A stretch of 64,000 nucleotides of DNA. Source: Gigantopelta aegis (Eukaryota). The stretch covers positions 62,332,537 to 62,396,536 of the forward strand of contig NC_054708.1 of NCBI RefSeq assembly GCF_016097555.1. Reading direction: 5' to 3'. Positions within the stretch are counted from its first letter, which is position 1; each line of letters starts with the position of its first letter. The notes below the pieces were generated by a model. The model saw only the letters and a program-made list of their open reading frames with translations. It was not told the origin of the DNA and did no database searches. The translations under genes and the position numbers were made by a program. Positions 381-54,884 of this stretch are shown one piece after another.

Positions 381-636
381 ATTTGTTTATGTAACACTGC
401 TTACGAACAATCATGTTTAAAATGTTTAATGTTTAACAACTTTCGCATACAACTGTTATATTATTTACACGTGGGACGTAGTGAGAAATCCAGACAGGGT
501 GTAATCATATATTAAGCGTTGTTAAGTTGGAGAAACGTGGATATCCATTAATCAATTTAACAAAACAATTTTCTTTTCAAAATCGTATTTCTGCTCAGGT
601 CCAAAATATTTTAGAAAAGGCTATTGTATCTTGTAA

Positions 637-2755
637 ATTAATCAGTATTATCATATCTTGTAAATTAATCAGTGTTGGCACATCTTGTAAATTAATTAGT
701 ATTATCATATCCTGTAAATTAATCAGTGATATCACATCTCGTAAATTAATCAATGTTATCATATCCTGTAAATTAATCAGTGATATCACATCTCGTAAAT
801 TAATCAGTGATATCACATCTTGTAAATTAATAAGTGATATTACATCTCGTAAATTAATCAGTGTTATCATATCTTGTAAATTAATCAGTGATATAACATC
901 TCGTAAATTAATCAGTGTTATCATATATTGTAAATTAATAAGTGATATCACATCTTGTAAATTAATCAGCGATATCACATCTTGTAAATTAATCAGTGAT
1001 ATTACGTCGTCTAAATTAATCAGTGGTATCACATCTTGTAAATTAATAAGTGTTCTCACATCTTGTAAATTAATCAGTGGTATGATATCTTGTAAATTGA
1101 TCAGTGTTACCATATCTTGTAAATTAATCAATGTTATCACATCTTGTGAATTGATCAGTGTTATCACATCTTGTAAATTAATAAGTGATATCACATCTTG
1201 TAAATTAATCAGTGTATCCCATCTTGTAAATTAATCAGTGATATCACGTCTTGTAAAGTAATCTGTGGTATCACATCTTGTAAATTAACCAGTGGTATGA
1301 TATCTTGTAAATTAATCAGTGGTATGATATCTGCTAAATTAATCAGTAATATCACATCTTGTGAATTAATCTGGATTATCACATCTTGTAAATTAATCAG
1401 TGGTATGGTATCTTGTAAATTAATCAGTGGTATGATATCTGCTAAATTAATCAGTAATATCACATCTTGTGAATTAATCTGGATTATCACATCTTGTAAA
1501 TTAATCAGTGGTATGGTATCTTGTAAATTAATCAGTGGTATGATATCTGCTAAATTAATCAGTAATATCACATCTTGTGAATTAATCTGGATTATTACAT
1601 CTTGTAAATTAATCAGTGATATCACATCTTGTAAATTAATCAGTGATATCACATCTTGTAAATTATTGTGATATCACATGCTGTAAATTAATCAATGATA
1701 TCATATGTTGTAAATTAATCAGTATTATCATATCTTGTAAATTAATCAGTGTTATCATATCTTGTAAATTAATCAGTGTTATTACATCTTGTAAATTAAT
1801 CAATGATATAACATCTTGTAAATTAATCTGTGATATCATATCTTGTAAATTAATCAGTGATATCATATCTTGTAAAGTAATATGTGATATCACATCTTGT
1901 AAATTAATCAGTGATATCACATCTTGTAAATTAATAAGTGATATCACATCTTGTAAATTAATCAGCGATATCATATTGTAATAATCAGTAATCTTGTAAA
2001 TTAATCAGCGTTACCACATCTTGTAAATTAATCATTGTTCTCACATCTTGTAAATTAATCAGTGGTATGATATCTGCTAAATTAATCAGTGATATCACAT
2101 CTTGTGAATTAATCTGGATTATCACATCTTGTAAATTAATCTGGATTATCACATCTTGTAAATTAATGTGATATCACATGCTGTAAATTAATCTGGATTA
2201 TCACATCTTGTAAATTAATGTGATATCACATGCTGTAAATTAATCAATCATATCACATATTGTAAATTAATCAGTATTATCATAGTTTGTAAATTGATCA
2301 GTGTTATCATATCTTGTAAATTAATCAGTGATATCACATCTTGTAAATTAATCAGTGATATCACATCTTGTAAATTAATAAGTGGTATGATATCTTGCAA
2401 ATTAATCAGTGCTGTCATATCTTGTAAATTAATCAGTGATATCACATCTTGTGAAGTAAAATGTAATATCATATCTTGTAAATTAATCAGTGATATCACA
2501 TCTTGTAAATTAATCAGTGTTATCATATCTTGTAAATTAATCAATGTTATGACATCTTGTAAATTAATCAGTGTTATCACATCTTGTAAATTAATCAGTG
2601 GTCTGATATGTTGTAAATTAATCAGTGGTATGATAGCTTGTAAATTAATCAGTGATATCACATCGTATAAATTAATAACTGATATCACATGCTGTAAATT
2701 AATAAGTGATATCATATCTTGTAAATTAATTGGTGATATCATATCTTATAAAATG
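637..2755. repeat. 27-bp minisatellite (consensus near ATCTTGTAAATTAATCAGTGATATCAC), about 80 copies, with a 120-bp higher-order repeat x3 at 1297-1620 and a roughly 57-bp HOR at 2060-2240
   Basis: Perfect and near-perfect 27-bp periodicity read directly from the sequence. The unit length is a multiple of 3 and lacks stops, which explains the long overlapping ORFs on both strands. Confidence 0.95.
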
Positions 2756-3573
2756 AACCATTGTCATGCATTGTTTGTAAGTGGCATTAATTGAAAATTT
2801 TGCACCAGCTATATAGTACTCTAAATTTGTAGGAAAATAATAAAAACACAAACGCACAAACGTTCGCTCGAAGTGGCAAACAAACACTTAAGCACACAAT
2901 AATGAAAGTAGAGGACGATGAATATGAGTACTTGTCATTTATGCGAGAAGATTAAGTTGTAAGAGATTTTATACACCACGATTTAAACATCCTTTGACAC
3001 TAACACAATTAAGTTTGATATTACGTTACTATAAATCATTCAAACTTGCAATAACGAAAAATTAATTTTATACTTGAGTTGATCGACATTTAAAAGATCA
3101 ACCAGTGAAAACACTGAGTACACGTGACACAGTTTAGAGAAACGAGGCAAATAACGGATTGATAGCTCAACGAATTTAGCAGACTTGCTGGAACTTCGAG
3201 CAATACGCTACAAACGAAATGGGAGTGGGGGTATGTGATTGTATTTGTCATTGGCCTAGCTAATATTGTGGGGCACCCACAATGGGGGTAGAGTGGATGG
3301 GAGTATACATTATTTATCGGGCGGCAGGAAAATATAAACGGCGATGGGGAAAAAAAGACGGGGCCCCATTATTTCCCCTCTAGCAACGCCAAACAAATTG
3401 AGGTAATGAGAAAACTGATTTATTACCCCCTGGTTAACATGCAGTGGTGCTATAACAATATTATATGCATGTACTAAACTGTGTCTAAGCATCAGACTAG
3501 GTTGGCAAATGAACACGTAAATACTGTATATCGTATTAAATATGCGATAAAAAATACTTATTAGGTAACATAG

Positions 3574-6318: not shown

Positions 6319-6992
6319 ACTGGGCTAGCATACACTTTATTTTACATTAGTGTACAAAACAGCAGTAGTTTGGCAAACCAAAATGGAAATAACTATTGTT
6401 TCAGTATGGCTTGGTAGCAATTAGCCTATATTTCAGACATGGTAGCCCTATTTAACGCCAACACTGGCCTGCATGGCAAAATTACAACGAGGCTACACCA
6501 CCCCATCCGGACCCCCAACTCCGTACTTAAAGCGTACTACAAATTAGAATGCTCCACACGTTTGACAACTGTGGAAGGTGTCAAAAAGGAAGCATATTTA
6601 ATCAACCATTATTGTGTGTCGAACAAAAAGGTGTGAAGTAGCACTATGTCGACTTCGGATGATTCCGTCTGAAGTGGACCCGCTCTTCGTTCAGTTATAT
6701 TTGATTACTATGTCACTAGGGGATTCAAGATTCTATTTTCACACAGACATGGTGGCGGTGCTGAGCTGCGGGTTTCCTGAAAATAACGAGGCAGAAAATA
6801 CACATGCCAATGATGCGATCACAGCGCCATCTGCGCGACCCGGTGCTTAGTCCAATAACCGTTCAGTACGAAATTAGTGGCTGCTTATAGCACAATAATA
6901 CAATCACGCACACTTGATTTTCAATTAAAGTAAAAATAATTAGCTTTTTAATGTATTAATTTAAAACAGTACAAAATATACACAAAGTATAT

Positions 6993-10879: not shown

Positions 10880-11257
10880 AAATGTTTTATTTAACGACGC
10901 ACTCAACACATTTTATTTACGGTTATATGGCGTCAGACATATGGTTATGGACCACACAGATTTTGAGAGGAAACCCGCTGTCGCCACTACATGGGCTACT
11001 CTTCCGATTGGCAGCAAGGAATCTTTTATTTGCGCTTCCCACAGGCAGGATAGCACAAACCATGGCTTTTGTTGAACCAGTTATGGATCACTGGTCGGTG
11101 CAAGTGGTTTACACCTACCCATTGAGCCTTGCGGAGCACTCACTCAGGGTTTGGAGTCGGTATCTGGATGAAAAATCCCATGCCTCGACTGGGATCCGAA
11201 CCCAGTACCTACCAGCCTGTAGTCCGATGGCTTAACCACTGCGCCACCGAGGCCGGT
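10880..11257 (-). mobile_element. Full-length tRNA-derived SINE (family A), minus orientation, with an 11-13 bp target-site duplication TCAGTAACAAA
   Basis: The tRNA-like head ACCGGCCTCGGTGGCGCAGTGGTTAAGCC...GGGTTCGGATCCCAG (A and B boxes) is at the 11257 end. The conserved body is ...GGAAACCCGCTGTCGCCAC... and the tail is ...GTCGTTAAATAAAACATTT. The direct repeat gttcagtaacaaaag (10857) matches tttcagtaacaaag (11257). Confidence 0.85.
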
Positions 11258-17164: not shown

Positions 17165-18190
17165 CACAATGCCTCGAGATATTGAGATGAAATTTGGTAT
17201 ATAATTTTATCATATACCATTAGAGATCAGGTTTGACTTTCATGACGATTTACACATTTTGACCGAATTATGGTCCTTGAACATAGGTGATACAGACATT
17301 TGTTTTCCCGTCTCCCCTCCCCCCTTCCCCTCAATGCCTCAACATACTGAGCTGAAATTTTGCGTATAGCTTTATAGTGTACCATTAAATATCACGTTTG
17401 ACTTTCTTGACGATTTACGTTACATGTAGCTTTATCATATACTATTACATATCAAGTGTGACTTTCATAACTATTTACTCATTTTGACAGAGTTATTACC
17501 CTTGAACTTAGGAGATGCGAAAATGTGTTTTTCTTACTCTTTTTTTTTTTTTTTTTTTTTTTAAAATTTTGTGTATAGCTTTACAGATCATGACGATTTA
17601 CCTATTTGTGACAAAGATATAGCCCTTGAATTCTGGCGAAACAAAAATTAGTTTTCCAGACTTTGTTTTTGCAATGCCTCAATATATTGAGCTGAAGTGT
17701 TGTGTACAGCTTGTGTACAGGCTCAATGGGTAGGTGTAAACCACTTGCACCGACCAGTGATCCATAACTGGTTCAACAAAGGCCATGGTTTGTGCTATCC
17801 TGCCTGTGGGAAGCACAAATAAAAGATCCCTTGCTTCTAATCGGAAGAGTAGCTCATGTAGTGGCGACAGCGGGTTTCCTCTCAAAATCTGTGTGGTCCT
17901 TAACCATATGTCTGACGCCATATAACCGTAAATATATTGTGTTGAGTGCGTCGTTAAATAAAACATTTTTTTTTTTTATGGCAATTTGCCCATTTGGTTT
18001 TACAGAGTTATAGCCCTTGAACTTAGGAGATATGAAAATATGTTTTTCGGACTTTTTTTCAATGCTTGAAGATACTGAGATTAAATTTTGTTTACAGTTT
18101 TGTCATGTACTGTTACAGATCAAGTTTAACTTCCATGTTAATTTATCCATTTTAAACAGAGTTATGGCCCTGGAACGTAGAAAATACAAA
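17165..18190. repeat. Degenerate roughly 130-bp tandem satellite of about 7 units (AATGCCTCAA.ATACTGAGCTGAAATTT...GACGATTTAC...GTTATAGCCCTTGAACTTAGGAGAT.CGAAAAT.TGTTTTTC), interrupted by a SINE insertion
   Basis: Unit starts recur at 17165, 17330, 17565, 17665 and 18060. The array resumes after the SINE at 17965. Confidence 0.75.
17707..17962 (+). mobile_element. 5'-truncated family-A SINE inserted into the 130-bp satellite
   Basis: GCTCAATGGGTAGGTGTAAACC...GTCGTTAAATAAAACATTTTTTTTTTT matches the 3' two-thirds of the 44285 copy. Confidence 0.85.
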
Positions 18191-20939: not shown

Positions 20940-21252
20940 GGGGGCGGGTCGTTGCTCAGTGGTACAGCGCTCGCCTAATGCGTGGTCGATCTAGGATCGA
21001 TCCCCGTCAGTGGGCCCATTGAGCTATTTCTTGTTTCACAACTGGTGTAAATAACAAAGGCCGTGGTATGTATTATTCTGTTTGTGGAATGGTGCATATA
21101 AAAGATCCCTTGCTGCTAATTGGAAAGTGTAGCCTATGAGGTAGCGACAGCGGGTTTCCTCTCTCAATATTTGTGTGGTCCTTAACCATATGTCTGACGC
21201 CATATAACCGTAAATAAAGTGCGTTGAGTGCGTCGTTAAATAAAACATTTCC
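20940..21252 (+). mobile_element. SINE with a third head variant (GGGTCGTTGCTCAGTGGTACAGCGCTCGCC...) fused to the family-A body and tail
   Basis: The 3' 200 bp is near-identical to the family-A copies and ends ...GTCGTTAAATAAAACATTTCC. Confidence 0.8.
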
Positions 21253-24700: not shown

Positions 24701-26028
24701 AAATGCATGAATAAGTGGACATATTTTTTTTAAACTTTTTATTTACGGTTATATGGCGTCAAACATATGGTTAAGTACCACACAGATAATGAGAGGAAAC
24801 CCGCTGTCGCCACTTCATGGGCTACTCTTTTCGATTAGCAGCAAGAAATCTTTTATATGCACCATCCCACAGACAGGGTAGTACATACCACGGCCTTTGA
24901 TATACAAGTCGTGGTGCACTGGCTGGAACGAGAACAAATAGCTCAATGGGCCCACCGACGGGGATCGATCCCAGACCGCCCGCAGAACGAGCGAGCGCTA
25001 TACCACATCCCACTCCACATTTTAGAGGGTATTTCACCATTTCAAAGCCACACACTCATGTTTCACTTAATTATAACTTTATCCAAAAGTGATACAGGTT
25101 TGTAGATTGACTAAACACGGTGTTAATTTTCACAGGTTCAAACTATGGTCTGTCCCTTTAAAGCCTCACACCCTAGTTCCATCCAGCGAAAATAAATTAT
25201 AATTTGGTTAATCTACAAACCTGTAACACACTTAGATCACGTTTTTATCAAATGGAGTGAAAAAGCAGGTTTTATATCGATAAATACCATGGGGATCCCC
25301 ATGTCCCAATTGCTTGAAATAATTTTGAAAGTTAGTATTCTGATGTCACCGGTAGAAACACAACAATGCCTACGTCACGACAAATTTCACAGACTTGGGG
25401 TGCGTTCGTTTCACCTCTCCTGGACATGCTCCAACTGTTCTGTCCTGCTTGTATCCCCTCTCCAGATATCGTAAGACTTAGCAAAATTATTGGTTTTAAG
25501 GGTTTGTAACGTTTTGTATTGAGACACTTACTTGTCTGAACTTTATTGTTACTGAAAATGTTCACGAACTGTGAAGAAAAATCTCACAAATGAACAACAA
25601 CAAATCGGATGTTGATTGCGCGAACCGTGCACGAGAAAACAAACCGAACCAAAATGATAACGGTCACGTGATATACCAACGTCTGTGACATTAAAAATAG
25701 ATTGGACCTTGCTTGCTTAACGGTTTTTTCTCGACAACACGTTTTGTGAAAAAATGCAAAAAATGCATTTCGTGGTTTTACAAACATCAGGATTACCAAA
25801 AAGCACTTCAGGTGAATGGAAATGTGTATTCTAAATAATAAAATGTAAGTAAAGTGCAATTTTATTTGTGAAAAATGGGGTTTAATAGCGAAAAACAACG
25901 CCGTAATGGTTAACAAATAAACGTAACTAGGGTGTGTCCCTTTAACAAATCATATAGATAACTATTTATTAAAGAGGGTACTATTAAGTTTTTCACGTGT
26001 GGGTCGTGACCTGTAAACTGTTAGAAAC

Positions 26029-26170
26029 TGTCACGGGGATCCTATAATACCCGTAACTGAATGAAACACGATTATCCAAATATCTCTCCTAACTGTATAT
26101 CTATTTGATCTCTCTGTATCGGGCAGTCTAATACCCGAGTGGCTCGGCTCTAGGTATAATCAGAGATAAG

Positions 26171-26221
<51 letters not shown>

Positions 26222-27186
26222 CACGTTTAGTTCACTAGAAAACACAACAAAACACAATACACTTTGGAATCTGTATTAACACTACGCTGACAAATGTATT
26301 GGCCGCAGTGGTTAATTAACAACAACAATATAATAACAACCCGGAGCTAATCACTTAATTAGTTAATCACTAGGTGTCTAGTTTACACAATATTCTAATC
26401 ACTTCACGGTAATACAACCCACACACGTGTGATAATTGAGAAACGCTGCCAGGGGAACTTAATTAATAAAGGAATTACAACTCTATTCCTAACTGGTTAA
26501 TTTTTAATTAACCCTTAACTACTCATTCAGTAACCTTGTAATACAGAATTAATACTGGTACATATCACCATAAAGACAATAACCTACAGTTTACCTAGGT
26601 CCTCTAGGATGACCGGCTAAGCTTTATCTTACCAAATACTCGTATCATAATATTAGAGCAGTGAAGCCTACAATTTACTTCGTCAGATTACCGGAGACAC
26701 TGTCTAAAGAATATTGGTATAATACAGTATTAAAATATTTAAAGTCACATCAATCACATCAAGGTTATACAACAGAGCAGAAAAATATATTTACCAGTCC
26801 AGTCGGACAAACATGTCCAATGTTTCTCCTCGATATCTCTAAAATCCTATCTATTTATTCAAAAATCTCAGAGACAGCGAATATCGCCTGGGGGCACAAC
26901 GCGGTACCTCACCTATCATGTGATATTTCCACAACTCCCAGGGATGGTATTTTTTCTTAGATGGCCAGGCTTACTGTCGGCAGTTCGCTAGAAATACTCC
27001 GGTCGTAAACCGCACTACCGGAGTTATTACGTAACTACTGGCCACATGGCCTCCACACCTGATCTAAGTGCATATTGGGACGCAGCTCTACCACGTCGCG
27101 CGGGGGTATTACGTAACCAAGCTGCACACGGCCCTCTAAAACAATTAACATCGCCACAGGCGAAAAGATAAGAGCATGTTCCGTCA
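26029..27186 (-). mobile_element. 3' LTR (1157 bp, TG...CA) of the minus-strand LTR retrotransposon. It contains a (TA)n tract at 26170-26220.
   Basis: It matches 31031-31236 plus 32990-33967 at roughly 97-98% identity. A polypurine tract (GAGGTGGGGGTGTG) on the element strand abuts it at 27187-27200. Confidence 0.85.
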
Positions 27187-27409
27187 CACACCCCCACCTC
27201 AAAAAGGATATTTCCTCTACTTTAGGATTAGGGAAATATACTACATTTAAACAAAACAAAATGTGCGTTAACCGACGCATCCGGGCATTTATAACACAAG
27301 TAATAAGGTGACTACCAGTAATCACACTGAGTCTCTGAGTCCCTAGTATACAATAAAATATATAAAAACAAAAACAGAAATCAAGAACGTCAACACATTA
27401 TCACAACGT

Positions 27410-28318
27410 TCAACTTTGGAACAGGGCATCAGCGATTACATTGGATGTGCCCTTGATATGTTCAATGGTAATTGGGAATTCCTGCAGAAGAAGACTCCAT
27501 CTCAAAACTCTCTGGTTGGTGGCTTTCATTCTGTGAATGAAAGTAAGCGGATTATGATCAGTAAAGACAACCACTTGATGCAATGCCGATTTCACGTAGA
27601 TCTGAAAGTGCTTCAGAGCTTGTACCATGGCCAAAGCTTCCTTCTCTATAGTGGAATAGTTCACCTGGTGTTTGTCAAACTTTTTGGAGAAGAAACTTAC
27701 AGGATGGTCCAGTTCATTTTCGTCTCCTTGGAACAGCACAGCTCCAGCCCCCACGTCACTGGCATCCACAGCCAGCTTGAAAGGCATTCGATAGTCTGGT
27801 GCTGTCATCATGGGAGACGAGGAGAGCATCTGCTTAAGACGGTTGAATGACTTCTCGCATTCATCTGACCACTGGAACTTCGATTCCTTCTTTAGCAGCG
27901 ATGTGATGGGGGCAGCTACCGTCGCAAATTTAGCACAGAAACGACGGTAATAACCGGCCATACCAAGAAACCGGCGAACTTCACGACGGTTGGTCGGTGC
28001 AGGATACTGGCTGATGCTTAGTGTCTTGGCCTGCAGTGGGGCGACGCAACCATGTCCGACAGTATGACCTAAGTAGGTCACTGAAGCTTTCACGAATTCA
28101 CATTTACCCAGGTTCACAGTCAAGTTAGCTTTCTGTAGGCGACTGAATATTTGTTGTAAACCGGTTAAATGTTCATCCCAAGTGTCGGTGGCTAACACCA
28201 CATCGTCCAGATACACACTGACGTTTTCTAAGTCTGATAACACATGGTTCATCATCCTTTGAAAGGCAGCAGGGCAGTCTTCAAACCAAACGGCATCACT
28301 CGGAATTGGAAGAGGCCG
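27410..28318 (-). pseudogene. pol: pol RT(C-terminal palm/thumb)/RNase H segment of the LTR retrotransposon, Ty3/gypsy-type, with a 1-bp frameshift inside the ...FGLKTAPAAFQ... motif
   Basis: Frame 1 reads ...TPDGLFQFRVMPFGLKTA. After a 1-nt shift the frame continues AAFQRMMNHVLSDLENVSVYLDDVV...LGKCEF... The RNase H segment includes DASDVGAGAVL...YSTIEKEALAMV, and the domain ends ...VIADALFQS before a stop. RT motifs 1-2 are missing. Confidence 0.85.
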
Positions 28319-28760
28319 TCAGGTGTGATGATCGCCAGAATGTCAACTTGCTCATGAAGTTCGTACCCCGGTCGCTTTGAATTTCACCTGGTAAACCCGT
28401 ATACGTGAAGTATTTAAGCAGCGCACTAGCTACAACAGATGCAGTAACCTTCCTTAAAGGAATCACCTCTGGAAAACGCGTAGTTAAGCACATAATTGTT
28501 AACAAGAATTGGTTGCCTGAACGCGTTTTCGGTAATGGCCCCACGACATCTATCAATACTTTTGAACAGGCTTCCCCAACTATGGGAACCTTCTGCAGGG
28601 GATAGGGCGGAATTTGCTGATGATTTGGTTTCCCCACAACCTGACACACATGACATACAATGCTTACTGACATCTGCAAACATTCCCTTCCAATAAAACT
28701 CTGAGGCAAGTTTACTATGAATCTTATTCCGCCCTAAGTGGCCAGCAAACACGTCCTCGT
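28296..28760 (-). pseudogene. pol: Integrase (HHCC zinc-binding region plus start of the DD(35)E core), lying upstream of RT within the element, frameshifted and truncated after ...QSDRGTNF
   Basis: Frame 1 reads LLLAHEDVFAGHLGRNKIHSKLASEFYWKGMFADV. After a shift the frame continues VCHVCQVVGKPN...SKVLIDVVGPLPKT...GEIQSDRGTNFMSKL. The IN core is fused directly to RT motif B sequence at about 28318, which is a deletion junction. Confidence 0.8.
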
Positions 28761-29299
28761 GTGCTAACAATAACAATGACGGATGGTACTTAGAGGGCAC
28801 CACAATTCTACATCTTGTCACACATTCCCCACTATCAGGCACAACCTTCTCCACACTCTTATTCATTAATACTCCCTTGTCCATATAATAACCTGACATC
28901 TGATCCTCCATACCACCCTCAGTTAACAATGTAGTGCGAGCTGCCAGCAAATTTGGATCAGCCCCCTGCTCTAGGATTAACTCTTGTCTATTACAAGGTA
29001 AGTCCCCTCTATCAAACACAACTCGTTCATTTACCCTCTGCGGGAGGTCAACAGGTTCCACCACATTTAGTTCCTCAGTTGACTTATCTACCTCATCCAC
29101 TCCAATTTCATGGCTCACACACGTATCAGACAAATCACAATTTTCCTCTGGGTCTCGTGCTACCCTTCTGGCCATAGCCCTAGTCATTACATACGCAGAA
29201 TATCTAATCTCATAAACCTCACACTCTTCTATGGGTAAAGGGCTGTCTTGAATTAACAATTTGTCACCTGGCGGCTGGCAACACTGACTAGTCAAATCG

Positions 29300-30457
29300 T
29301 TACCCAACAAAACTCCTGTTTTCAAAAGGCAAATCCTTCACAACACCCATAGTGACTGGTCCCGTCACAAACTTCGAACACAAGAAAACGTTATGTAACC
29401 GGACAACCATATTTTCTCCAGTAACCGAGGTTAAGGCCAAACTACGTCCTGTATCTGAATTCTCTATACCAGCTAAACAATCTGACGTTATAAGAGACTG
29501 GCTACACCCTGTATCTCGATAGATTGATATTGCCTTAGGACTCAACTCTTGTTTTACATAACAAACCATACCAGTGGACACATACGGGTTTACTTTCTCT
29601 GCCATGGGACTAACCATTAACTCTCTCGCTAACGGAGCTGACCTCACTAAACCGACCACTTGCGCATTATCGCGTTTCCTTTTAAAACAGTCCCCGACAA
29701 GATGGTTATCCTTTTTACAGTAACTGCAATGTGGACGAAAAGTTCGTGCATTGGCTGATAATGCAGGCCTATCCTTACTTTGCCCACCAGGTACATTCCT
29801 TGCCTGACTAGCTGACCAACTAGATGACTCTCCCCGATAGTTACTTTCCCGGGAAAAACCTGGCTGAAATTTCTTCTTATCACCCTGTTGTATAGAGCTA
29901 CCCTGTACTGCCTGAGCTTTGTGTATTAACATGTAATCATCTGCCGCTATGCCTGCCTCCTCTATTTTTTTTATATCACGATCCTCTAAATGAATACGTA
30001 AGCTAACTGGTAATCCATTTTTAATGTCCTGTAAGATCAACAATTCCCGTAACTCGGTATATGACCCTACCTGATGAGAAACCACCCATTTATCAAACAA
30101 CCCTGCTTTCTTAGCCACGAACTCACTAAAAGACTGACCCTGCGTTTTCTTCAACTCGCTATACCGTAAATGATAATCCTCAGGTCGTAACTCATAAGCC
30201 CTCAACACTGCAGACGTAACTAGGTCGTACTGACTTGCTCGCTCATCACTCATTGAATTATAAGCTACGCTAGCCTTCCCCTTAAACTTAGACTGCGGCC
30301 AATTTAGCTGCTTAGTGGCCCGTTCAAAAAGTTGGAAGAACATATCTACCTCCTGGTCGTCAAATACAGGCACTGATCTATAAGCCTCCGACATGTTAAA
30401 CCCATTTCCTGCCTCTCGTCTAACTTTTTCAGTATTCAACATTAACTCATGTTCCAC
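29300..30457 (-). CDS. gag-pro: gag-protease ORF of the LTR retrotransposon (385 aa). It has a CCHC zinc knuckle (CSYCKKDNHLVGDC) and an aspartic protease motif (YRDTGCSQSLI).
   Basis: The ORF is uninterrupted. Both motifs were read in the translation. The 299-aa ORF at 28426-29325 continues into the IN N-terminus. Confidence 0.8.
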   Translation of the reverse strand: MEHELMLNTEKVRREAGNGFNMSEAYRSVPVFDDQEVDMFFQLFERATKQLNWPQSKFKGKASVAYNSMSDERASQYDLVTSAVLRAYELRPEDYHLRYSELKKTQGQSFSEFVAKKAGLFDKWVVSHQVGSYTELRELLILQDIKNGLPVSLRIHLEDRDIKKIEEAGIAADDYMLIHKAQAVQGSSIQQGDKKKFQPGFSRESNYRGESSSWSASQARNVPGGQSKDRPALSANARTFRPHCSYCKKDNHLVGDCFKRKRDNAQVVGLVRSAPLARELMVSPMAEKVNPYVSTGMVCYVKQELSPKAISIYRDTGCSQSLITSDCLAGIENSDTGRSLALTSVTGENMVVRLHNVFLCSKFVTGPVTMGVVKDLPFENRSFVG

Positions 30458-31183
30458 TTTTAATTTTGCTAACTAGAATTCTCTATCCCTATCTCTCTTC
30501 TCTTTCTCTCTCTCTCTCTCTTCTCTATCTCTATCTTCTCTTTCTCTCTCTATCTTCTTTTTTTCTCTCTCTCTCTATCTCGCTTTCTCTCTTCTCTATC
30601 TAATGCACGTTCTTCTCTTTCGTACTCGTTTTTTAAAAGCTAACTGTTGTTCCACACTTAACTCATTTATCTCTATCTCTGGAACAACCTCACTGTCTTC
30701 CATAACAGGCATATCACCAAAAACTTCCTGGATAATAATTGTCTTTATATCACTTAATGTTTTAGCTGATGTTAAATAAATTTCTCGCTCACTCGCGATT
30801 TCAACTAATTCGGCCTTACGCGCTCGCTTAATCTCCACTACACTGAGCGTAGGCCTATCCAGCAAATTCTTATCCATATTTAGGTATGACGCACTTATTA
30901 TTATTTTTTTCTAGTGAACAACGTTGCTACTTCTAGTGAATTTGTAAAAATAATTTATAAAGCCCCCATTTATAAACAATACTTTTTAAATATGCATGTC
31001 CCGTTTCAGATCCGGGACGAGCACCCCAATTTTTACTCCTGTCACGGGGATCCTATAATACCCGTAACTGAATAAAACATGATTATCCAAATATCTCTCC
31101 TAACTGTATATCTATTTGATCTCTCTGTATCGGGCAGTCTAATACCCGAGTGGCTCGGCTCTATGTATAATCAGAGATAAGAT

Positions 31184-31235
<52 letters not shown>

Positions 31236-31238
<3 letters not shown>

Positions 31239-32840
31239 TACTCAAAAGAATTTAAGGGTCAACAATTTATAACCAAATAAGTTTCAGAGTGTATTAGATT
31301 GATGATGTAAACTACACCAAATTTTTTATTTATTGTTATATATTTACAAAAAAACACAAATAAACGTCACTGTATACAAGAAAGTCACATTACATGCTGT
31401 CAAAGTTGAAGGTTGTCAAACATGGATTTTACACATTAGAACATTCGTTTAATAGTGTGTGAAGCCACCCCTGGCGCGAATACACTCGACACATCGTTGC
31501 CTCATGCTGTTGATCAGACGTCTGAAGGACTCTTGGGGAATGGCCTGCCACTCTGCCATAAGAAGTTGACCCAGATCATGAAGGTTGGCCGGAGGGGCAT
31601 GGTTATCCCGAACTCTCCTGCCTAATTCGTCCCAGGCGTGCTCTGTTGGGGCCAAGTCAGGCGAATATGCTGGCCAATCCATCCTGGCGATACCTTGTTG
31701 TCTGAGAAAGTCCGTTACCACCCTGGCGCGGTGGGGTCTGGCATTGTCATCCTGCAGAACTGCCCCGCCGCCAATCTGCTGAAGGCCTGGGAGAACCAAC
31801 GGCCGGATAATCTTATTCAGATAGCGGATTCCATTCAGATTGCCATCCACCACATAGAGGGGGGTCCTGTGGTGGATAGAGATGCCGCCCCACACCATGA
31901 CGCTGCCACCACCGAACCAGTGACGTTGTCTAACGTTAACGTCAGCGAAGCGCTCCCCAGGACGTCTGTAGACACGAACCCGACCGTCGTTGAACTGGAG
32001 ACTAAACCTGGACTCATCAGTGAACATCACTCGACCCCACTGAACACGTTGCCACCGCAGATGAAGCGTGCACCAGTGACGTCTGGCCGTTCTGTGACGT
32101 GGTAGGAGTGGTGGTCGAACAGCCTGGCGACGGCAGTGTAGATTATTGGCTCTCAGACGATTGCGTATGGTTTGATCAGACACTCGAGTTCCAGTCGCAG
32201 TCCGCAGATTGTCACGTAATCGGCGTGCAGTGGTTGTGCGTTGACGTAGAGCCATATTGGTGATGTAGCAGTCCTCTCTATTTGTAGTGCTTCGGGGTCT
32301 TCCCGAACGTGGACGATTTCGAACAGAATTCGTTGCTTGGTACCGTTGCCACAGTCGGCCAACGACACTCTGACTGACACCAAGTCTCAGAGCAACATTT
32401 CTTTGCGTACTGCCATCCTGAAGCCAAGCAATAGCCCTTCCTCGATCTTCGATAGTCAGTTGAAGTCGTACCATTGTCGAATTTGGAGTGTGCACCGTAC
32501 ACGAACGCAAGCTCCAATTATACGGAAATTCAGCACTGGGAACATGGAATACACGTGCAAAGCGTGCAAATGAAGCGCTTTGTGAAAAAGCAAGTTATGG
32601 GCACTTAGCAGACCTTTCGCTTTCGCCCTAATTTACGTGCAAATGTAAGCATGTTTTCGCCATTAGAACTAGTCGACAATGTCAATGACAGTGGATTTTA
32701 ATTCATTTATGGGTTGCTTAGACCCACTTTCGTCAAAATGGAACAATACCATGCGTGACATTATGGTCTAGCTAATATAATTGACATTCAGAAAATAATG
32801 TCGAAAATATCGTCTGACCCTTAAATTCTTTTGAGTAGTA
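31236..32840 (-). mobile_element. Complete Tc1/mariner DNA transposon (about 1.6 kb) with 25-bp TIRs (TACTACTCAAAAGAATTTAAGGGTC / GACCCTTAAATTCTTTTGAGTAGTA), inserted at TA within the (TA)n of the retrotransposon 5' LTR
   Basis: The TIRs are perfect reverse complements read directly. The element encloses an intact transposase ORF. Confidence 0.9.
31449..32510 (-). CDS. Tc1-family DDE transposase, 353 aa, uninterrupted. The real start is probably the internal M at 32474 (MVRLQLTIEDRG...).
   Basis: It has the paired-like HTH region ...RPRSGRPRSTT... and the catalytic triad contexts FTDESRF, LQDDNARPH and SPDLAPTEHAW. Confidence 0.9.
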   Translation of the reverse strand: MRSCTVHTPNSTMVRLQLTIEDRGRAIAWLQDGSTQRNVALRLGVSQSVVGRLWQRYQATNSVRNRPRSGRPRSTTNREDCYITNMALRQRTTTARRLRDNLRTATGTRVSDQTIRNRLRANNLHCRRQAVRPPLLPRHRTARRHWCTLHLRWQRVQWGRVMFTDESRFSLQFNDGRVRVYRRPGERFADVNVRQRHWFGGGSVMVWGGISIHHRTPLYVVDGNLNGIRYLNKIIRPLVLPGLQQIGGGAVLQDDNARPHRARVVTDFLRQQGIARMDWPAYSPDLAPTEHAWDELGRRVRDNHAPPANLHDLGQLLMAEWQAIPQESFRRLINSMRQRCVECIRARGGFTHY

Positions 32841-32923
32841 TATATATACTTGTATATATATAATTTGTCCAACCCCCTTTCTGTCCTTGACTGGACAGTG
32901 TCCCCAGGACAGCGTGCTTGAAC

Positions 32924-32990
<67 letters not shown>

Positions 32991-35489
32991 CACGTTTAGT
33001 TCAATAGAAAACACAACAAAACACAATACACTTTGGAATCTGTATTAACACTATGCTGACAAATATACTTGCCGCAGTAGTTAATTAACAACAACAATAT
33101 AATAACAACCCAGAGCTAATCACTTAATTAGTTAATCACTAGGTGTCTAGTTTACACAATATTCTAATCACTTCACGGTAATACAACCCACACACGTGTG
33201 ATAATTGAGAAACGCTGCCAGGGGAACTTAATTCATAAAGGAATTACAACTCTATTCCTAACTGGTTAATTTTTAATTAACCCTTAAATTCTCATTCAGT
33301 AACCTTGTAATATAGAATTAATACTGGTACATATCACCATAAAGACAATAACCTACAGTTTACCTAGGTCCTCTAGGATGACCGGCTAAGCTTTATCTTA
33401 CCAAATGCTCGCATAAAAATATTAGAGCAGTGAAGCCAACAATTTACTTCGTCAGATTACCGGAGACACTGTCTAAAGAATATTGGTATAATACAGTATT
33501 AAAATATTTAAAGTCACATCAATCACATCAAGGTTATACAACAGAGCAGAAAAATACATTTACCAGTCCAGTCGGACAAACGTTCCCCGGGAGCCTTCCA
33601 ATGTTTCTCCTCCATATCTCTAAAATCCTATCTATTTATTCAAAAATCTCAGAGACAGCGAATATCGCCTGGGGGCACAACGCGGTACCTCACCTACCAT
33701 GTGATATTTCCACAACTCCCAGGGATGGTATTTTTTCTTAGATGGCCAGACTTACTGTCGCCAGTTCGCTAGAAATACCCCGGTCGTAAACCGCACTACC
33801 GGAGTTATTACGTAACTACTGACCACATGGCCTCCACAACTGGTCTAAGTGCATATTGGGACGCAGCTCTACCACGTCGCGCGGGGGTATTACGTAACCA
33901 AGCTGCACACGACCCTCTAAAACAATTAACATCGGCACAGGCGAAAAGATAAGAGCATGTTCCGTCATGAAAATTATGATACGGAATGTCCTGGAGATAT
34001 TCAGTTAAAATTTTGTTTTGTTTAACGACACCACTAGAGCACACTGGTGTATTAATCACAGACTATTGGATAACTTATGGGAGGTTAGTAGCAAGGGATC
34101 TAAAGATTCTTTTATATGCACCATTCTACAGACAGAGCCTTTTTAACGACTAAAATGACAGATTAAATACATGGTCCTGTTTAAAATACCACTGTCCATG
34201 TATCCAGTGTTTCTGGTCGTTTTAAATTTTGCAGTAACCCAAACTGGGTTTTACTTACCAATAATAAGTTTCATATTTGTGCCTTTTTATTTCTTCATTC
34301 ACCAATTCATTTATTCATTAAAAATAATCACGTCCTCAAACCATACCACGTAGGTCCATGGGTGAGCTTGTCATTATTTCTCTTTAGGTTGTGGCTTCAA
34401 ACTTGGTCTACATGTCTGCTTTCGTTTTTATTTTTGGGGAAAATATACCCACTAATTATATTATAGATCACTAATTAACCAAATAAAGCTATAGCACAAT
34501 TTGTCCAACCCCCTTTCTGTCCTTGACTGGACAGTGTCCCCAGGACAGCGTGCTTGAACATTATTTTAATATGGGCACATCAAATTCCACAGGATAGCAC
34601 ATACCACGGCCTTTGATATATCAATCGTGGCGCACTGGCTGGAACAAGAAACAGTCCAATGGGCCCACCGTCGGGGATCGTTCCCGACCGCGCATCAAGT
34701 GGACGCTTCACCACTGGGCTACGTCCCGCTCCCAAAACACAGAGAACATACCTTAACAATAAGGATACATTTGTGCAACTTTGAAATTTCTGTTGTGGGT
34801 ACAGATACCCCCATAACCCAGAGCCCGTTTATCCTAGTGGCACATGTAGCATGTGCTACGGACACCCCGGTGTGTACATTTATCCATCCCCCCCCCCCCC
34901 CCTCCTCTCCCCCGAGTGGGTTGCAAAAAAAGGATATCCGCCGTTATTTGTACTACTCTGTACAGGCTCCGCGGATCCTAAAACCGGTTCTGCCATAACC
35001 CTTGAATAATTTTTAATTCAGTTTTACAATTAATAGTGAAACCATAATAAAATAAATGTTAGTTTTTCATCCATTTTTATGTAAACATGGGAATAGGATG
35101 TGGGATGAATGACATTAAAATTTTCAGGACATACCACATGGTATAAAGGACACATTTTTGAGATGGCCAATAAAAAGGGTGGTGGTTGGTCAGAGACGAC
35201 ACTTTAGTATTCATTTCATTATGGTCCTGGGGCAGGACGTAGCCCAGTAGTAAAGCGCTCGCTTGATGTGCATTCGGTCTGGGATCGATCCCTGTCAGTG
35301 GGCCCAGTGAGTTATTTCTCGTTCGAGCCTGTGTACAACTGGTATATCAAAGGATGTGGTATGTGCTATCCTGTCCATGGGATGGCGCATATAAAAGATA
35401 TCTTGCTACTAATGAACAAGAGTACTGGTGAGGTACATGATACACCTGTCAGGAGTTTGATGGAAAACCATATTGTAAGTGACACACCA

Positions 35490-35700
35490 CTATCCTAAGT
35501 TGTTCCTACATGTGAGGTTTGATGTTCCTATATGCAAGATATGGTCCGGACAAGGATTTACCGTTATGTGCAGTAGACTGTGAAAAGTAGGTCACAGTCA
35601 CCTAGTAATAGTACGCGGCACATCACCATCCCATGTTGTTCCTACATGTGAGGTTCGATGGTTCTGTATGCATCTGTATCCAAGATATGGTGAGGACAAG
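35490..35700. repeat. Two units of a roughly 120-bp satellite (…GTGCAGTAGACTGTGAAAAGTAGGTCACAGTCACCTAGTAATAGTA…CATCCCA.GTTGTTCCTACATGTGAGGTT.GATGGT.CTGTATGCA…AAGATATGGTCCGGACAAGGATTTAC). The same family forms a 6-7 unit array at 38050-38790.
   Basis: Direct comparison. 35410-35700 is duplicated at 37975-38300, including the preceding segment gagtactggtgaggtacatgatac... Confidence 0.85.
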
Positions 35701-37083: not shown

Positions 37084-38820
37084 CTGGAATTACAGCAAAA
37101 GCTGAGAGAGTTAATCATTTTTCAATTACACAGAATTGATTTTCTCGATGGTGAACCCATCAATGCCAGAAAGTATCCTGTGTGAACTTATTATAAGAAT
37201 TTAATTGCTTGAAATCTATTCTGGATATTAGAATCAATTTTCTTTTAAAGTGTCATTTTACTGAGTGAAAAAACAAAACAAAAAAACCCGGGAAAAACCC
37301 CACACACACAGTAAATGCCGGTAATTGTGACATTCAAGATAATCTTAAGAGATTTGAACGAGTTTAGAAGTACATGCAGCTTGACAGTTTTAATTGCAGG
37401 TGCTAGCACAAAAACATATCACCACACATGCAGGTTCTGTGAAGCCACACCATTGAATAGTGTAATTAATATCCAGTGCTGTTAAATATAGATTTCAAAA
37501 TACCCATATAATCACCAAAAACAGATTTTTAATAAACCCAATTACATGCCGTGTAAGTCTAATGCAGACTCAGTCTTTATAATACATTTGTAATCCTTTG
37601 AGAAAAAAACTTATATGCCAGACAAAGATGCCTGTAAACAGTTAATGTCCATGTTCTTGCACTTGCAGACTATCTACTGTAATATTGTCTTGTATTGTTT
37701 TTTTCTCTCTCCCATTCATACCATTACTTTTGTTTTCCTTAAACTCTCATGGTTTTAAAGACAGAAAAAAGAAATCTGTAAACCAAGAATTTTTAATTCT
37801 TAAATTTCTTTGTATAAATGATGGATTTTTTTTTGGGGGGGGGTGGGGGGGATTTAAACCATTCAAGTAATTACTGTTATATTTTAGGTGGTGGTTTTTC
37901 TTTAAAAAAATTTTATTCAAATTAAGGAAAGTAGTTCCTGTTATATCTCACCGGTCATTTGTGTAATGTTGTTGTTCACTGTACAAACAAGAGTACTGGT
38001 GAGGTACATGATACGACCATCAGGAGTTTGATGGAAAACCATATCTATATTAATGATTATGTTACGTGTATGATTCAATTCTAATTATGAGAAAATTTTG
38101 CTGTGAAAAGCAGGTCACAGAGACCTAGTAATAGTATGCGACACACACCCATCCCAAGTTGTTCTTACATGTGAGGTTTGATGGTCCTGTATGCAAGATA
38201 TGGTCCAGACAAGGATTTACTGTTATGTGCAGTAGACCGTGAAAAGTAGGTCACAGTGACCTAGTAATAGTAGGTGACACACCGCCATCCCAAGTTGGTC
38301 CTACACGTGAGGTTTGATGGTCCTGTATGCAAGATATGGTCCGGACAAGGATTTACTGTTATGTGCAGCAGACCGTGAAAAGTAGGTCACAGTGACCTAG
38401 TAATAGTAGGTGACACACCGCCATCCCAAGCTGCTCCTACATGTGAGGTTTGATGGTCCTGTATGCAAGATATGGTCCGGACAAGGATTTATTGTTATGT
38501 GCAGTAGACCATGAAAAGTAGGTCACAGTGACCTAGTAATAGTATGCGACACACCGCCATTCCAAGTTGGAGACACCATCATCCCAAGTTGTTCCTACAT
38601 GTGAGGTTTGATGGTCACAGAGACCTAGTAATAGTATGCAACACACCACCATCCCAAGTTGTTCCTACATGTCAGGTTTGATGGTCCTGTATGCATCTGT
38701 ACGCAAGATATGGTCCGGACAAGGATTTATGTGCAGTAGACCGTGAAAAGTAGGTCACAGTGACCTAGTAATAGTATGCGAGACACCGCCATCATAGATG
38801 CTCGTATATAAATGTGTTAC

Positions 38821-44284: not shown

Positions 44285-44690
44285 ATGTACCGGCCTCGGT
44301 GGTGTTGTGGTTAGGCCATCGGTCTACAGGCTGGTAGGTACTGGGTTTGGATCCCAGCCGAGGCATGAGATTTTTAATCCAGATACCGACTCCAAACCCC
44401 GAGTGAATGCTCCGCAAGGCTCAATGGGTAGGTGTAAACCACTTGTACTAAACCAGTGATCCATAACTAGTTCAACAAAGGCCATGGTTTGTGCTATCCT
44501 GCCTGTGGGAAGCACAAATAAAAGATCCCTTGCTGCTAATTGGAAAGAGTAGCCCATGTAGTGGCGACAGCAGGTTTCCTCTCAAAATCTGTGTGGTCCT
44601 TAACCATATGTCTGACGCCATATAACCGTAAATAAAATGTGTTGAGTGCATCATTAAATAAAACATTTCTTTTTTTGATATTATGTATTT
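44285..44690 (+). mobile_element. Full-length family-A tRNA-derived SINE with a 10-bp TSD GATATTATGT
   Basis: The head is ACCGGCCTCGGTGGTGTTGTGGTTAGGCCATCGG...GGGTTTGGATCCCAGCC and the tail is ...AAATAAAACATTTCTTTTTTT. The TSD was read on both flanks. Confidence 0.9.
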
Positions 44691-54166: not shown

Positions 54167-54884
54167 GTACGTGTAACAAGATAAACACTGAAACGTCATC
54201 TGGATTCCTGCTTTCATCTTTTCAAATGAATTATCAATTATTTTTACATGTATATTTTTGCACAGTAAAAACTGCCTAAACTGGATCCTGAGGATAACAG
54301 GCCAGTTTTTTTGCCCCACATTTTACCTATTTATGTGCAGTAGACAATCTTTTATTAACAAGTAAGATAGCAATAATTGGTCTGCATTAACAAATTACAT
54401 CAGTTTTTTAATTGGCCAAACCCACTAAAAATAAAAATCTATTTTGTCATTTAGTTGGAAAAGTAAATCAAAAATCTATTTGATCATGATGAAACATCCA
54501 CTCATTTGATAAATTATGATGGTATTAAGCAAACATGCTGGGCTGCATTTACACATGTATAGGGTGGGACATAACCCAGTGGTAAAGTGCTTGGCTGATG
54601 TGTGGTCAGTCTGGGATCGATCACCATCATTGGGCTATTTCTTGTTCCAGTCAGTGCCCCACGACTGGTATTTCAAAGGCTGTGGTATGTGCTGTCCTGA
54701 ATGGGATGGTGCATATAAAAGATCCCTTGCTACTAATGGAAAAATGTAGCGTGTTTTGTCTCTAAGACTATATGTTAAAATTATCCATGATTAATAAATA
54801 GCCAGTGATTAATAAGTCAGTGTGCTCTAGTGGTATCATTAAGCAAAACAAACTTTTAACTTTTTACACATGTATAACTATGCA

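What the first reader, a model, noticed from the sequence alone, without database searches (positions are those of the whole stretch)
26029..33967. LTR retrotransposon with gypsy-type RT/RNase H but integrase upstream of RT (Gmr1-like domain order)
On the minus strand the order is 5' LTR, about 570 bp of leader, gag (CCHC), protease (DTGCS), integrase (HHCC zinc finger plus core D residues), RT motif B (TPDGLFQFRVMPFGLKTAPAAFQ), YLDD, thumb (LGKCEF), RNase H, a polypurine tract, then the 3' LTR. RNase H ends with the typical gypsy ...VIADAL terminus directly before the 3' LTR, with no integrase downstream. A single internal deletion fuses the integrase core (after ...QSDRGTNF) to RT just before motif B. 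That deletion is contiguous only if integrase sits upstream of RT. A PR-IN-RT-RH order with a clearly gypsy-like RT is the hallmark of the Gmr1-like lineage of Ty3/gypsy elements, which is a small group. The copy is dead (frameshifts in integrase and RT, internal deletion), but the LTRs are still about 97-98% identical.
Basis: partly seen in the sequence, partly recalled or inferred. Interest (0 to 1): 0.6.

Follow-up and report, generated by a model that had tools for sequence, protein, structure and literature searches.

The report
Dead Gmr1-like LTR retrotransposon copy

Summary
On the minus strand, 33967..26029 is an LTR retrotransposon. It has two 1.16-kb LTRs (2.96% diverged), a tRNA-Pro-type primer binding site, and a gag with a SCAN-like capsid and a CCHC knuckle. 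It also has a DTG protease, an integrase zinc finger and half core, the C-terminal half of a Ty3-type RT, RNase H and a polypurine tract. Integrase lies upstream of RT.

Intact relatives (P0001, P0031, P0029 and about 40 others from fish, a crinoid, oysters and abalone) are single ORFs. All have the order SCAN-gag, PR, IN, RT, RH. The window copy is colinear with them except for one contiguous gap of about 390 aa (about 1.2 kb) at 28344/28341.

An NJ tree using Gypsy Database reference cores puts the window with Gmr1 and rGmr1. All integrase-upstream sequences form one clade (74% bootstrap). The window's own four-member subclade has 99%.

Corrections:
- gag starts at 30877, so the leader is 162 bp, not 570.
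- The 5' LTR is split by a 1.7-kb insertion that carries an intact Tc1/mariner.
- There are also three in-frame stops in gag and a frameshift at the protease end.

Gmr1-like elements are already reported from several phyla. Interest is low.

The parts
32946..33967 (-). 5' LTR, outer (5') part. It starts TGACGG at 33967 and ends inside the LTR's (TA)n tract.
   Evidence: Aligns with 27186-26177 of the 3' LTR: 29 mismatches plus one 12-nt gap in 1022 columns. Sequence.
31232..32945 (-). Insertion of 1714 bp in the (TA)n tract of the 5' LTR. It holds a Tc1/mariner element (about 31236-32840; 24-nt terminal inverted repeats at 31238-31261 and 32815-32838; intact transposase ORF 32510-31449), a 75-bp copied piece (32862-32936) and extra TA repeats.
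   Evidence: Absent from the 3' LTR. Inverted repeat I16. Pfam DDE_3 and HTH_Tnp_Tc3_2. A 98% identical 341-aa protein, P0090, exists. The 75-bp piece is 96% identical to 34498-34572.
31040..31231 (-). 5' LTR, inner (3') part, ending ...CCCCGTGACA at 31040.
   Evidence: 188 of 192 positions identical to 26220-26029. The same CCCCGTGACA terminus is seen in the relative L003.
31010..31028 (-). Primer binding site, TGGGGTGCTCGTCCCGGAT. It matches the tRNA-Pro-type PBS TGGGGGCTCGTCCGGGAT with one inserted base and one mismatch.
   Evidence: Pattern search. L003 has the 18-mer exactly, 17 nt after its LTR end. L001 and L002 carry close variants at the same place. That this 18-mer is the tRNA-Pro PBS (as in MLV) is from my own knowledge.
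29687..30877 (-). gag: start ATG at 30877, an RE-rich N-terminal region with three in-frame stops (30598, 30577, 30475), a SCAN-like capsid domain (about 30184-29921) and the CCHC knuckle (29728-29687).
   Evidence: N-terminus aligns with P0031 residues 8-130, E 2e-20. Pfam SCAN 27.1 bits against a cut-off of 27. Translation and motif coordinates.
29293..29545 (-). Protease (RDTGCS at 29521-29495, LLGNDL at 29310-29293), with a frameshift near 29320.
   Evidence: Motifs seen directly. Colinear with P0001 residues about 440-520, with a frame change. There was no Pfam protease hit.
28344..28806 (-). Integrase, N-terminal half: HHCC zinc finger (28761-28641, broken by a frameshift near 28655) and the catalytic core up to the second D (LIDVVGPLP, QSDRGTNF). 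It ends at FMSKL.
   Evidence: Pfam Integrase_H2C2 E 2.7e-16 and rve profile 9-81/102. 65-78% identical to P0001, P0031 and P0029.
28339..28346 (-). Deletion junction. Integrase homology ends at 28344 and RT homology resumes at 28341. About 390-417 aa (about 1.2 kb) of IN C-half, linker and RT N-half are missing.
   Evidence: tblastn of five intact relatives skips P0001 840-1231, P0002 833-1237, P0003 619-1035 and P0004 851-1220. The missing segment has no hit anywhere in the 64-kb window.
27410..28341 (-). Reverse transcriptase C-terminal half (motif B, YLDD, LGKCEF; frameshift near 28273), followed by RNase H ending VIADALFQS and the stop codon.
   Evidence: Pfam RVT_1 profile 110-205/205, RT_RNaseH_2 and RT_RNaseH. 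Best PDB match is Ty3 RT 4ol8, E 1.7e-58. 61-67% identical to P0001 and P0031.
27187..27200 (-). Polypurine tract GAGGTGGGGGTGTG, immediately upstream of the 3' LTR.
   Evidence: Sequence. The relative L001 has GAAGGCGGGGGAG at the same distance (about 230 bp) after its RNase H stop.
26029..27186 (-). 3' LTR, 1158 bp and uninterrupted, TGACGG...CCCCGTGACA.

Best explanation
This is a dead, about 6.2-kb copy (7.9 kb with the later insertion) of an LTR retrotransposon of the Gmr1-like lineage of Ty3/gypsy. In this lineage the single gag-pol ORF is ordered SCAN-like capsid, CCHC nucleocapsid, protease, integrase, reverse transcriptase, RNase H.

What an intact element would do (inferred from the anatomy, not shown here): it is transcribed from the 5' LTR. 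Gag-Pol is made as one polyprotein and cut by the DTG protease. Reverse transcription is primed from a tRNA-Pro-type PBS a few bases after the LTR. Plus-strand synthesis is primed from the G-rich polypurine tract before the 3' LTR. The integrase then inserts the DNA copy.

What happened to this copy after or during insertion: one contiguous deletion of about 1.2 kb removed the C-terminal half of integrase, the IN-RT linker and the N-terminal half of RT. It also acquired three nonsense codons and three frameshifts. The (TA)n tract of its 5' LTR received a Tc1/mariner element plus a 75-bp piece copied from about 1.6 kb away.

The copy can encode no active protein and is a genomic fossil. By LTR divergence (K about 0.03) it is roughly 3-15 Myr old if the neutral rate is 1-5e-9 per site per year. 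That rate is assumed, not known for this host.
For: - LTR pair, PBS and PPT.
- Domain identities and order by Pfam.
- Colinearity with intact single-ORF relatives and a single gap at 28344/28341.
- All of about 40 full-length relatives have SCAN > IN > RT > RH.
- L001 and L003 have only non-coding PPT/LTR sequence after RNase H.
- The IN and RT-RH fragments have the same nearest relatives (P0029/P0031/P0001), so this is one element and not a chimera.
- The NJ tree with GyDB references groups the window with Gmr1/rGmr1. All integrase-upstream taxa 74%, the 27-taxon clade with the window 83%, the window's subclade 99%.
- Gmr1 and rGmr1 are the most similar references (43% against 39% or less).
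- Ty3 RT is the best solved-structure match.
- The literature defines Gmr1-like by exactly this architecture.
Against: - No copy of the same family (over 80% identity) was found, so the order was confirmed in clade-level relatives only.
- The deep node joining the window's clade to Gmr1/rGmr1 has moderate support (74% NJ with 341 columns). It is unresolved (31%) when only the part of RT that survives in the window is used.
- The SCAN hit in the window copy is borderline (27.1 bits against a cut-off of 27). SCAN-like gag also occurs in a standard-order element (P0064) and in BEL/Pao proteins (P0087-89), so it is not diagnostic on its own.
- There is no clean target-site duplication.
- The protease was recognised by motif and colinearity only.
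Confidence: 0.93

Rival explanations
1. It is a rearranged copy of an ordinary Ty3/gypsy element (PR-RT-RH-IN). Several deletions, or recombination between tandem or nested copies, happened to place an integrase fragment in front of an RT fragment.
For: The copy is heavily damaged by frameshifts, stops, a deletion and a nested insertion. Rearrangement is therefore conceivable a priori.
Against: The PR-to-IN stretch (29352-28344) and the RT-RH-to-PPT-to-LTR stretch are each colinear with intact single-ORF proteins that have the same order. One contiguous gap explains the whole structure. A standard-order origin would need at least three independent deletions. RNase H is followed by a PPT and LTR at the same spacing as in the intact relative L001. 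Standard-order proteins (P0009, P0011, P0012, P0064, P0068-73) fall outside the clade.
Confidence: 0.02
2. It is a Ty1/copia element, in which PR-IN-RT-RH is the normal order.
For: The domain order is the copia order.
Against: The RT matches Pfam RVT_1, and there is no RVT_2 hit at E up to 0.01. The integrase finger is Integrase_H2C2. The RNase H is of the RT_RNaseH/RT_RNaseH_2 type. The best solved structure is Ty3 RT/RNase H at E 1.7e-58. The element clusters with Gypsy Database Ty3/gypsy references.
Confidence: 0.01
3. The 1.2-kb deletion is not private to this copy. It marks a non-autonomous deletion-derivative subfamily that was mobilised in trans by intact Gmr1-like elements and inserted here already deleted.
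For: The LTRs, PBS and PPT are kept. Deletion derivatives of LTR elements are common (general knowledge). Nothing here dates the deletion relative to the insertion.
Against: No second copy exists in the window. No protein carrying the same IN-RT fusion appeared among the database hits. The many other lesions show long neutral decay, which is enough to explain a single deletion.
Confidence: 0.15

Closest known systems
Gmr1 and rGmr1 (Gmr1 clade of Ty3/gypsy; first described from Atlantic cod, Goodwin and Poulter 2002, as cited in PMC6238403 and PMC8220671)
   Same: Gypsy-type RT/RNase H with integrase upstream of RT. Groups with the Gmr1 and rGmr1 reference cores in the RT+RH tree (74%). These are the most similar references (43% identity). 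Shared TN(A/Q)R...RW motif in RNase H.
   Different: The window belongs to a separate 27-taxon branch (83%) that is sister to (Gmr1, rGmr1, P0005), not inside that trio. It is only 43% identical to the references over RT-C plus RH. This copy is truncated and dead.
SCAN-encoding 'Gmr1-like' elements of vertebrates (source of the SCAN domain of zinc-finger proteins; bioRxiv 10.1101/2025.03.03.638093, PMC3424704)
   Same: Same architecture: SCAN-like capsid, PR, IN, RT-RH. Teleost proteins (Alosa, Danio, Astyanax, Mugilogobius, Chanodichthys) sit in the same 27-taxon clade.
   Different: The window's nearest relatives come from invertebrate-associated sources: Haliotis asinina P0053, a Solemya velum symbiont assembly P0010, and unnamed metagenome/Logan contigs. 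The host here is unidentified.
P0031 / L003 (intact element in JGI sample 3300017525)
   Same: Closest relative found. 1543-aa single ORF with the same order. Same LTR terminus CCCCGTGACA. An exact tRNA-Pro-type PBS.
   Different: Only 34% identical in gag and 67% in RT-RH, so it is a different family. It is intact, whereas the window copy is not.
Ty3 (Saccharomyces; PDB 4ol8, 7q5b)
   Same: Best solved-structure match for RT-RNase H, E 1.7e-58 over residues 2-305.
   Different: Ty3 has the standard order, with integrase downstream of RNase H.

Membership tests
Gmr1-like clade of Ty3/gypsy | LTR retrotransposon anatomy: two LTRs, a PBS after the 5' LTR, a PPT before the 3' LTR | tested here: met
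   The LTRs are 97% identical. A tRNA-Pro-type PBS lies at 31028-31010 and is conserved in L001-L003. A G-rich PPT lies at 27200-27187. The TSD is not clean.
Gmr1-like clade of Ty3/gypsy | Ty3/gypsy-type RT and RNase H | tested here: met
   Pfam RVT_1, RT_RNaseH_2 and RT_RNaseH, with no RVT_2 hit. Best PDB hit is Ty3 RT.
Gmr1-like clade of Ty3/gypsy | Integrase upstream of RT (PR-IN-RT-RH) | tested here: met
   Seen in this copy and in about 40 intact or near-intact relatives. No integrase lies downstream of RNase H in the window, L001 or L003.
Gmr1-like clade of Ty3/gypsy | RT/RNase H phylogeny places it with the reference Gmr1 sequences | tested here: met
   NJ tree, 341 columns, 200 bootstraps: clade of all integrase-upstream taxa including Gmr1 and rGmr1 at 74%. 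Support falls to 31% with RT C-half plus RH only. Only 21 reference elements were available, and no maximum-likelihood tree could be run.
Gmr1-like clade of Ty3/gypsy | SCAN-like C-terminal capsid domain in gag | tested here: met
   Pfam SCAN 27.1 bits against a cut-off of 27 in the window copy. Relatives score 43-62 bits. The feature is not exclusive to this clade (P0064, P0087-89).
Gmr1-like clade of Ty3/gypsy | Integrase C-terminal domain (Integrase_p58_C / SH3_Tf2-1) between the IN core and RT | not testable with these tools
   This region lies in the deleted segment of the window copy. It is present in relatives.
Ty1/copia | Copia-type RT (Pfam RVT_2) and copia-type integrase N-terminus | tested here: not met
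   No RVT_2 or gag_pre-integrs hit at E up to 0.01. Integrase_H2C2 and RVT_1 were found instead.
BEL/Pao | Peptidase_A17 protease and BEL-type RT, order PR-RT-RH-IN | tested here: not met
   No Peptidase_A17 or DUF1758 hit. The BEL/Pao proteins P0087-89 matched the family profile far more weakly than the integrase-upstream proteins (E 1e-50 to 1e-54).

The most novel reading that the evidence does not exclude
The window copy, with P0031, P0001 and P0029 (and, in the integrase tree, abalone P0053 and the Solemya-derived P0010), may represent a molluscan or other protostome branch of Gmr1-like elements. That branch lies inside a clade that also holds teleost and crinoid elements and is sister to the reference Gmr1/rGmr1. 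If so, either the integrase-upstream arrangement arose once before the protostome-deuterostome split, or these elements moved horizontally among marine animals. The host of the window is not identified, and Gmr1 is already listed as present in several phyla (PMC8556966). This would refine known distribution rather than reveal a new kind of element.
Probability: 0.4. Interest if true: 0.25.

Novelty: new member of a known kind. Interest (0 to 1): 0.15.

Why it matters
It matters little beyond annotation. The copy is a correct textbook example of the Gmr1-like arrangement. It shows that a single contiguous deletion can be used to read domain order from a fossil copy. The wider data collected here have some value for TE classification pipelines, many of which assume the RT-RH-IN order for gypsy elements. 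About 40 intact SCAN-gag/IN/RT/RH polyproteins were found from fish, a crinoid, oysters and abalone, with a conserved tRNA-Pro-type PBS. Some of these proteins are filed in public databases as bacterial proteins. The nested, apparently young Tc1/mariner is probably the more active element at this locus.

Tried and rejected
- Exact-sequence look-ups of six window ORFs (RT-RH, gag-PR, PR-IN and both Tc1 transposases) to identify the host or other copies: none is in the collection.
- The first protein search, with the stitched 1014-aa polyprotein, found no same-family copy. The best hit was 38% identical overall.
- The Tc1 transposase search gave a 98% identical protein. It came only from unnamed Logan/ENA records (SRR30000411, ERZ25071447). 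Named hits (Littorina, Batillaria) are about 57% identical. The host stays unidentified.
- An Rfam scan of the whole window found no family at gathering score.
- I looked for the missing IN-C/RT-N segment elsewhere in the window, as a test for local rearrangement. There was no hit.
- I looked for solo LTRs or other copies of the element in the window. There are none.
- A tree from only the surviving RT half plus RH did not resolve the deep node. It was replaced by a full RT plus RH tree in which the window carries gaps.
- L002 (GCA_001998525.1 contig) has an odd repeat structure and was not used for LTR inference.
- No structure prediction was run, because sequence evidence was decisive.

Full report
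OBSERVATION. On the minus strand the region 33967..26029 is bounded by two long direct repeats. BLAST of the two ends shows the uninterrupted 3' LTR at 27186-26029 (1158 bp). It matches 33967-32946 with 29 mismatches and one 12-nt gap in 1022 columns. It matches 31231-31040 at 188 of 192 positions. Outside the LTR's (TA)n microsatellite that is 33 substitutions in 1114 sites, 2.96%, Jukes-Cantor 0.030.

A 1714-bp stretch (31232-32945) sits in the (TA)n tract. It contains a Tc1/mariner element with 24-nt terminal inverted repeats (31238-31261 and 32815-32838). Its 353-aa ORF is intact and hits Pfam DDE_3 and HTH_Tnp_Tc3_2.

CODING CONTENT.
- CCHC at 29728-29687
- RDTGCS at 29521-29495
- the HHCC finger at 28761-28641
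- the first two catalytic D residues of integrase (LIDVVGPLP, QSDRGTNF)
- RT motif B at 28329-28250
- YLDD at 28213
- LGKCEF at 28111
- RNase H ending VIADALFQS with a stop at 27410

Pfam on the stitched 1014-aa protein gives this order: SCAN (gag capsid, 27.1 bits, cut-off 27), Integrase_H2C2 (E 2.7e-16), rve (profile positions 9-81 of 102 only), RVT_1 (positions 110-205 of 205 only), RT_RNaseH_2 and RT_RNaseH (E about 1e-32). There was no RVT_2 (copia RT) hit and no protease family hit. The best solved structure for the RT-RNase H fragment is Ty3 RT (4ol8, E 1.7e-58). It scores far above caulimovirus and retroviral RTs. So the RT is gypsy-type and integrase lies upstream of it.

INTACT RELATIVES. 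A search with the stitched protein found P0001-P0005 and oyster proteins. A second search with their alignment found 77 proteins. These include named teleost, crinoid, oyster and abalone entries. Pfam on P0001-P0005 and BLAST mapping of P0001 segments onto all 89 proteins show that every full-length relative is one ORF. The order is SCAN-gag > IN finger/core > IN C-terminal domain > RT > RNase H. More distant hits such as P0009, P0011, P0012 and P0068-73 have the standard RT > RH > IN order.

tblastn of P0001, P0002, P0003, P0004, P0029 and P0031 against the element shows strict colinearity:
- gag-PR at 30880-29318
- PR end to the IN finger at 29352-28645
- IN core at 28655-28344
- a jump in the query (P0001 residues 840-1231, about 390 aa; 370-417 aa in the others) while the window moves only from 28344 to 28341
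- RT-RH from 28341 to 27413

The missing segment is nowhere else in the window.

In contig L001 the RNase H stop (4861) is followed by about 230 bp, a G-rich PPT and then the LTR, which ends at 6408. In L003 the RNase H end is followed by about 1.4 kb of non-coding sequence before gag starts again. Neither has a downstream integrase.

CORRECTIONS TO THE ANATOMY. The gag ORF does not begin after a 570-bp leader. The ATG at 30877 opens a reading frame whose first 130 residues align with the N-terminus of P0031 (37% identity, E 2e-20) and with other relatives. The leader is 162 bp. This N-terminal, RE-rich stretch carries three in-frame stops (30598, 30577, 30475). There are three frameshifts: at the protease end (about 29320), in the zinc finger (about 28655) and in RT motif B (about 28273).

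A PBS lies 10 nt after the 5' LTR. TGGGGTGCTCGTCCCGGAT (31028-31010) differs by one inserted base and one mismatch from TGGGGGCTCGTCCGGGAT. From my own knowledge, that 18-mer is the tRNA-Pro PBS of MLV. L003 has it exactly, and L001 and L002 have close variants at the same position. The LTR terminus CCCCGTGACA is shared with L003. The PPT GAGGTGGGGGTGTG abuts the 3' LTR. I found no clean target-site duplication. The flanks are TTTCA and GTTTC.

PHYLOGENY. A first NJ tree of the RT C-half plus RNase H used database proteins only. It placed the window with P0031, P0001 and P0029 (100%) inside a core clade made solely of integrase-upstream proteins (91% split from the rest). The integrase fragment gives the same neighbours, plus abalone P0053 and P0010 (87%). 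The two halves therefore come from one element.

The supplements of PMC8220671 hold Gypsy Database RT and RNase H core alignments. I copied 21 references: Gmr1, rGmr1, Osvaldo, Ulysses, Woot, Boudicca, 412, Mdg1, Mag, Gulliver, DRM, CFG1, Hydra21, SPM, SURL, Cer4 and five plant Tat/Ogre-type elements.

With RT C-half plus RH (254 columns) Gmr1 and rGmr1 are the references most similar to the window (43% against 39% or less). The core clade has 90%, but the deep node is unresolved.

With full RT plus RH (341 columns, the window carrying gaps) the results are:
- all 30 integrase-upstream taxa, including the window, Gmr1 and rGmr1, form one clade at 74%
- the 27-taxon branch holding the window has 83%
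- (Gmr1, rGmr1, P0005) has 91.5%
- the window's own subclade has 99%

All standard-order sequences and the other reference clades fall outside. This is NJ with a simple distance and a partial reference set, so the deep node should be treated as moderately supported.

COMPARISON WITH THE LITERATURE. The Gmr1 clade is described as the unusual group of gypsy elements whose integrase lies upstream of RT (PMC6238403; PMC8220671). 'Gmr1-like' elements are characterised by SCAN-like capsid, PR, IN, RT-RH and are abundant in fish and turtles (bioRxiv 10.1101/2025.03.03.638093). The SCAN domain of vertebrate zinc-finger proteins derives from their gag (PMC3424704). Gmr1 is listed among the few gypsy clades present in several phyla (PMC8556966). 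It has been reported in an annelid and, as Gmr1/Osvaldo, in a flatworm. The element here meets every testable defining feature. It is a new, dead member of a known kind.

HOST. I could not identify the organism. Exact look-ups failed. The nested Tc1 transposase has a 98% identical protein in an unnamed Logan run and 91% relatives on large unnamed ENA contigs. Named relatives (gastropods Littorina and Batillaria) are only about 57% identical. The retrotransposon's nearest named relatives are molluscan: Haliotis, oysters and a Solemya-derived contaminant. A mollusc is a reasonable guess, not a result.

VERDICT. Interest is low because the lineage and its architecture are well documented.

Noticed in passing
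window 31236-32840 (minus strand; ORF 32510-31449): A Tc1/mariner element with an intact 353-aa transposase and 24-nt terminal inverted repeats is nested in the (TA)n tract of the retrotransposon's 5' LTR. A 98% identical 341-aa protein (P0090, a cluster of 143 sequences) exists in a Logan run, which suggests a young and possibly active family.
   Followed up: partly
window 32862-32936 and 34498-34572: A 75-bp piece lies between the Tc1 end and the (TA)n tract inside the 5' LTR. It is a 96% copy, in the same orientation, of sequence about 530 bp outside the element. It looks like templated filler DNA from break repair or a tiny mobile fragment. It remains unexplained.
   Followed up: partly
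window 59471-60529 (minus strand): A second Tc1/mariner transposase ORF (352 aa, uninterrupted), only 45% identical to the one in the LTR, so it belongs to a different family.
   Followed up: no
window 24734-25006, with copies at 20959-21218, 44453-44640, 10908-11094, 17754-17934, 35247-35424, 54579-54750 and others: A dispersed repeat of about 190-270 bp occurs in both orientations at 75-85% identity (SINE- or MITE-like). ARAGORN calls an unassignable tRNA-like sequence at 11181-11253, next to one copy.
   Followed up: no
window 527-2794: Long minisatellite arrays give spurious repetitive ORFs on both strands (ISCKLISDITS / LINLQDVIS units).
   Followed up: no
window 35472-35700 and 38101-38793: Tandem or dispersed copies of a unit of about 136 bp, 82-88% identical, in the flank on the high-coordinate side of the element.
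   Followed up: no
proteins P0010 and P0033 (database hits): Gmr1-like polyproteins are filed under bacterial names (Solemya velum gill symbiont, Breoghania sp.). These are almost certainly eukaryotic host DNA in bacterial assemblies.
   Followed up: no
proteins P0064 and P0087-P0089 (database hits): A SCAN-like gag also occurs in a standard-order gypsy polyprotein (P0064: SCAN > RT > RH > IN) and in BEL/Pao-type proteins. The SCAN-like capsid is therefore wider than the integrase-upstream lineage and may bear on how that arrangement arose.
   Followed up: no
L001 146-164, L002 6150-6167, L003 2400-2417, window 31028-31010: A tRNA-Pro-type primer binding site is conserved across distant Gmr1-like relatives. 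The window and L001 both carry an extra base after TGGGG, at the same position.
   Followed up: partly
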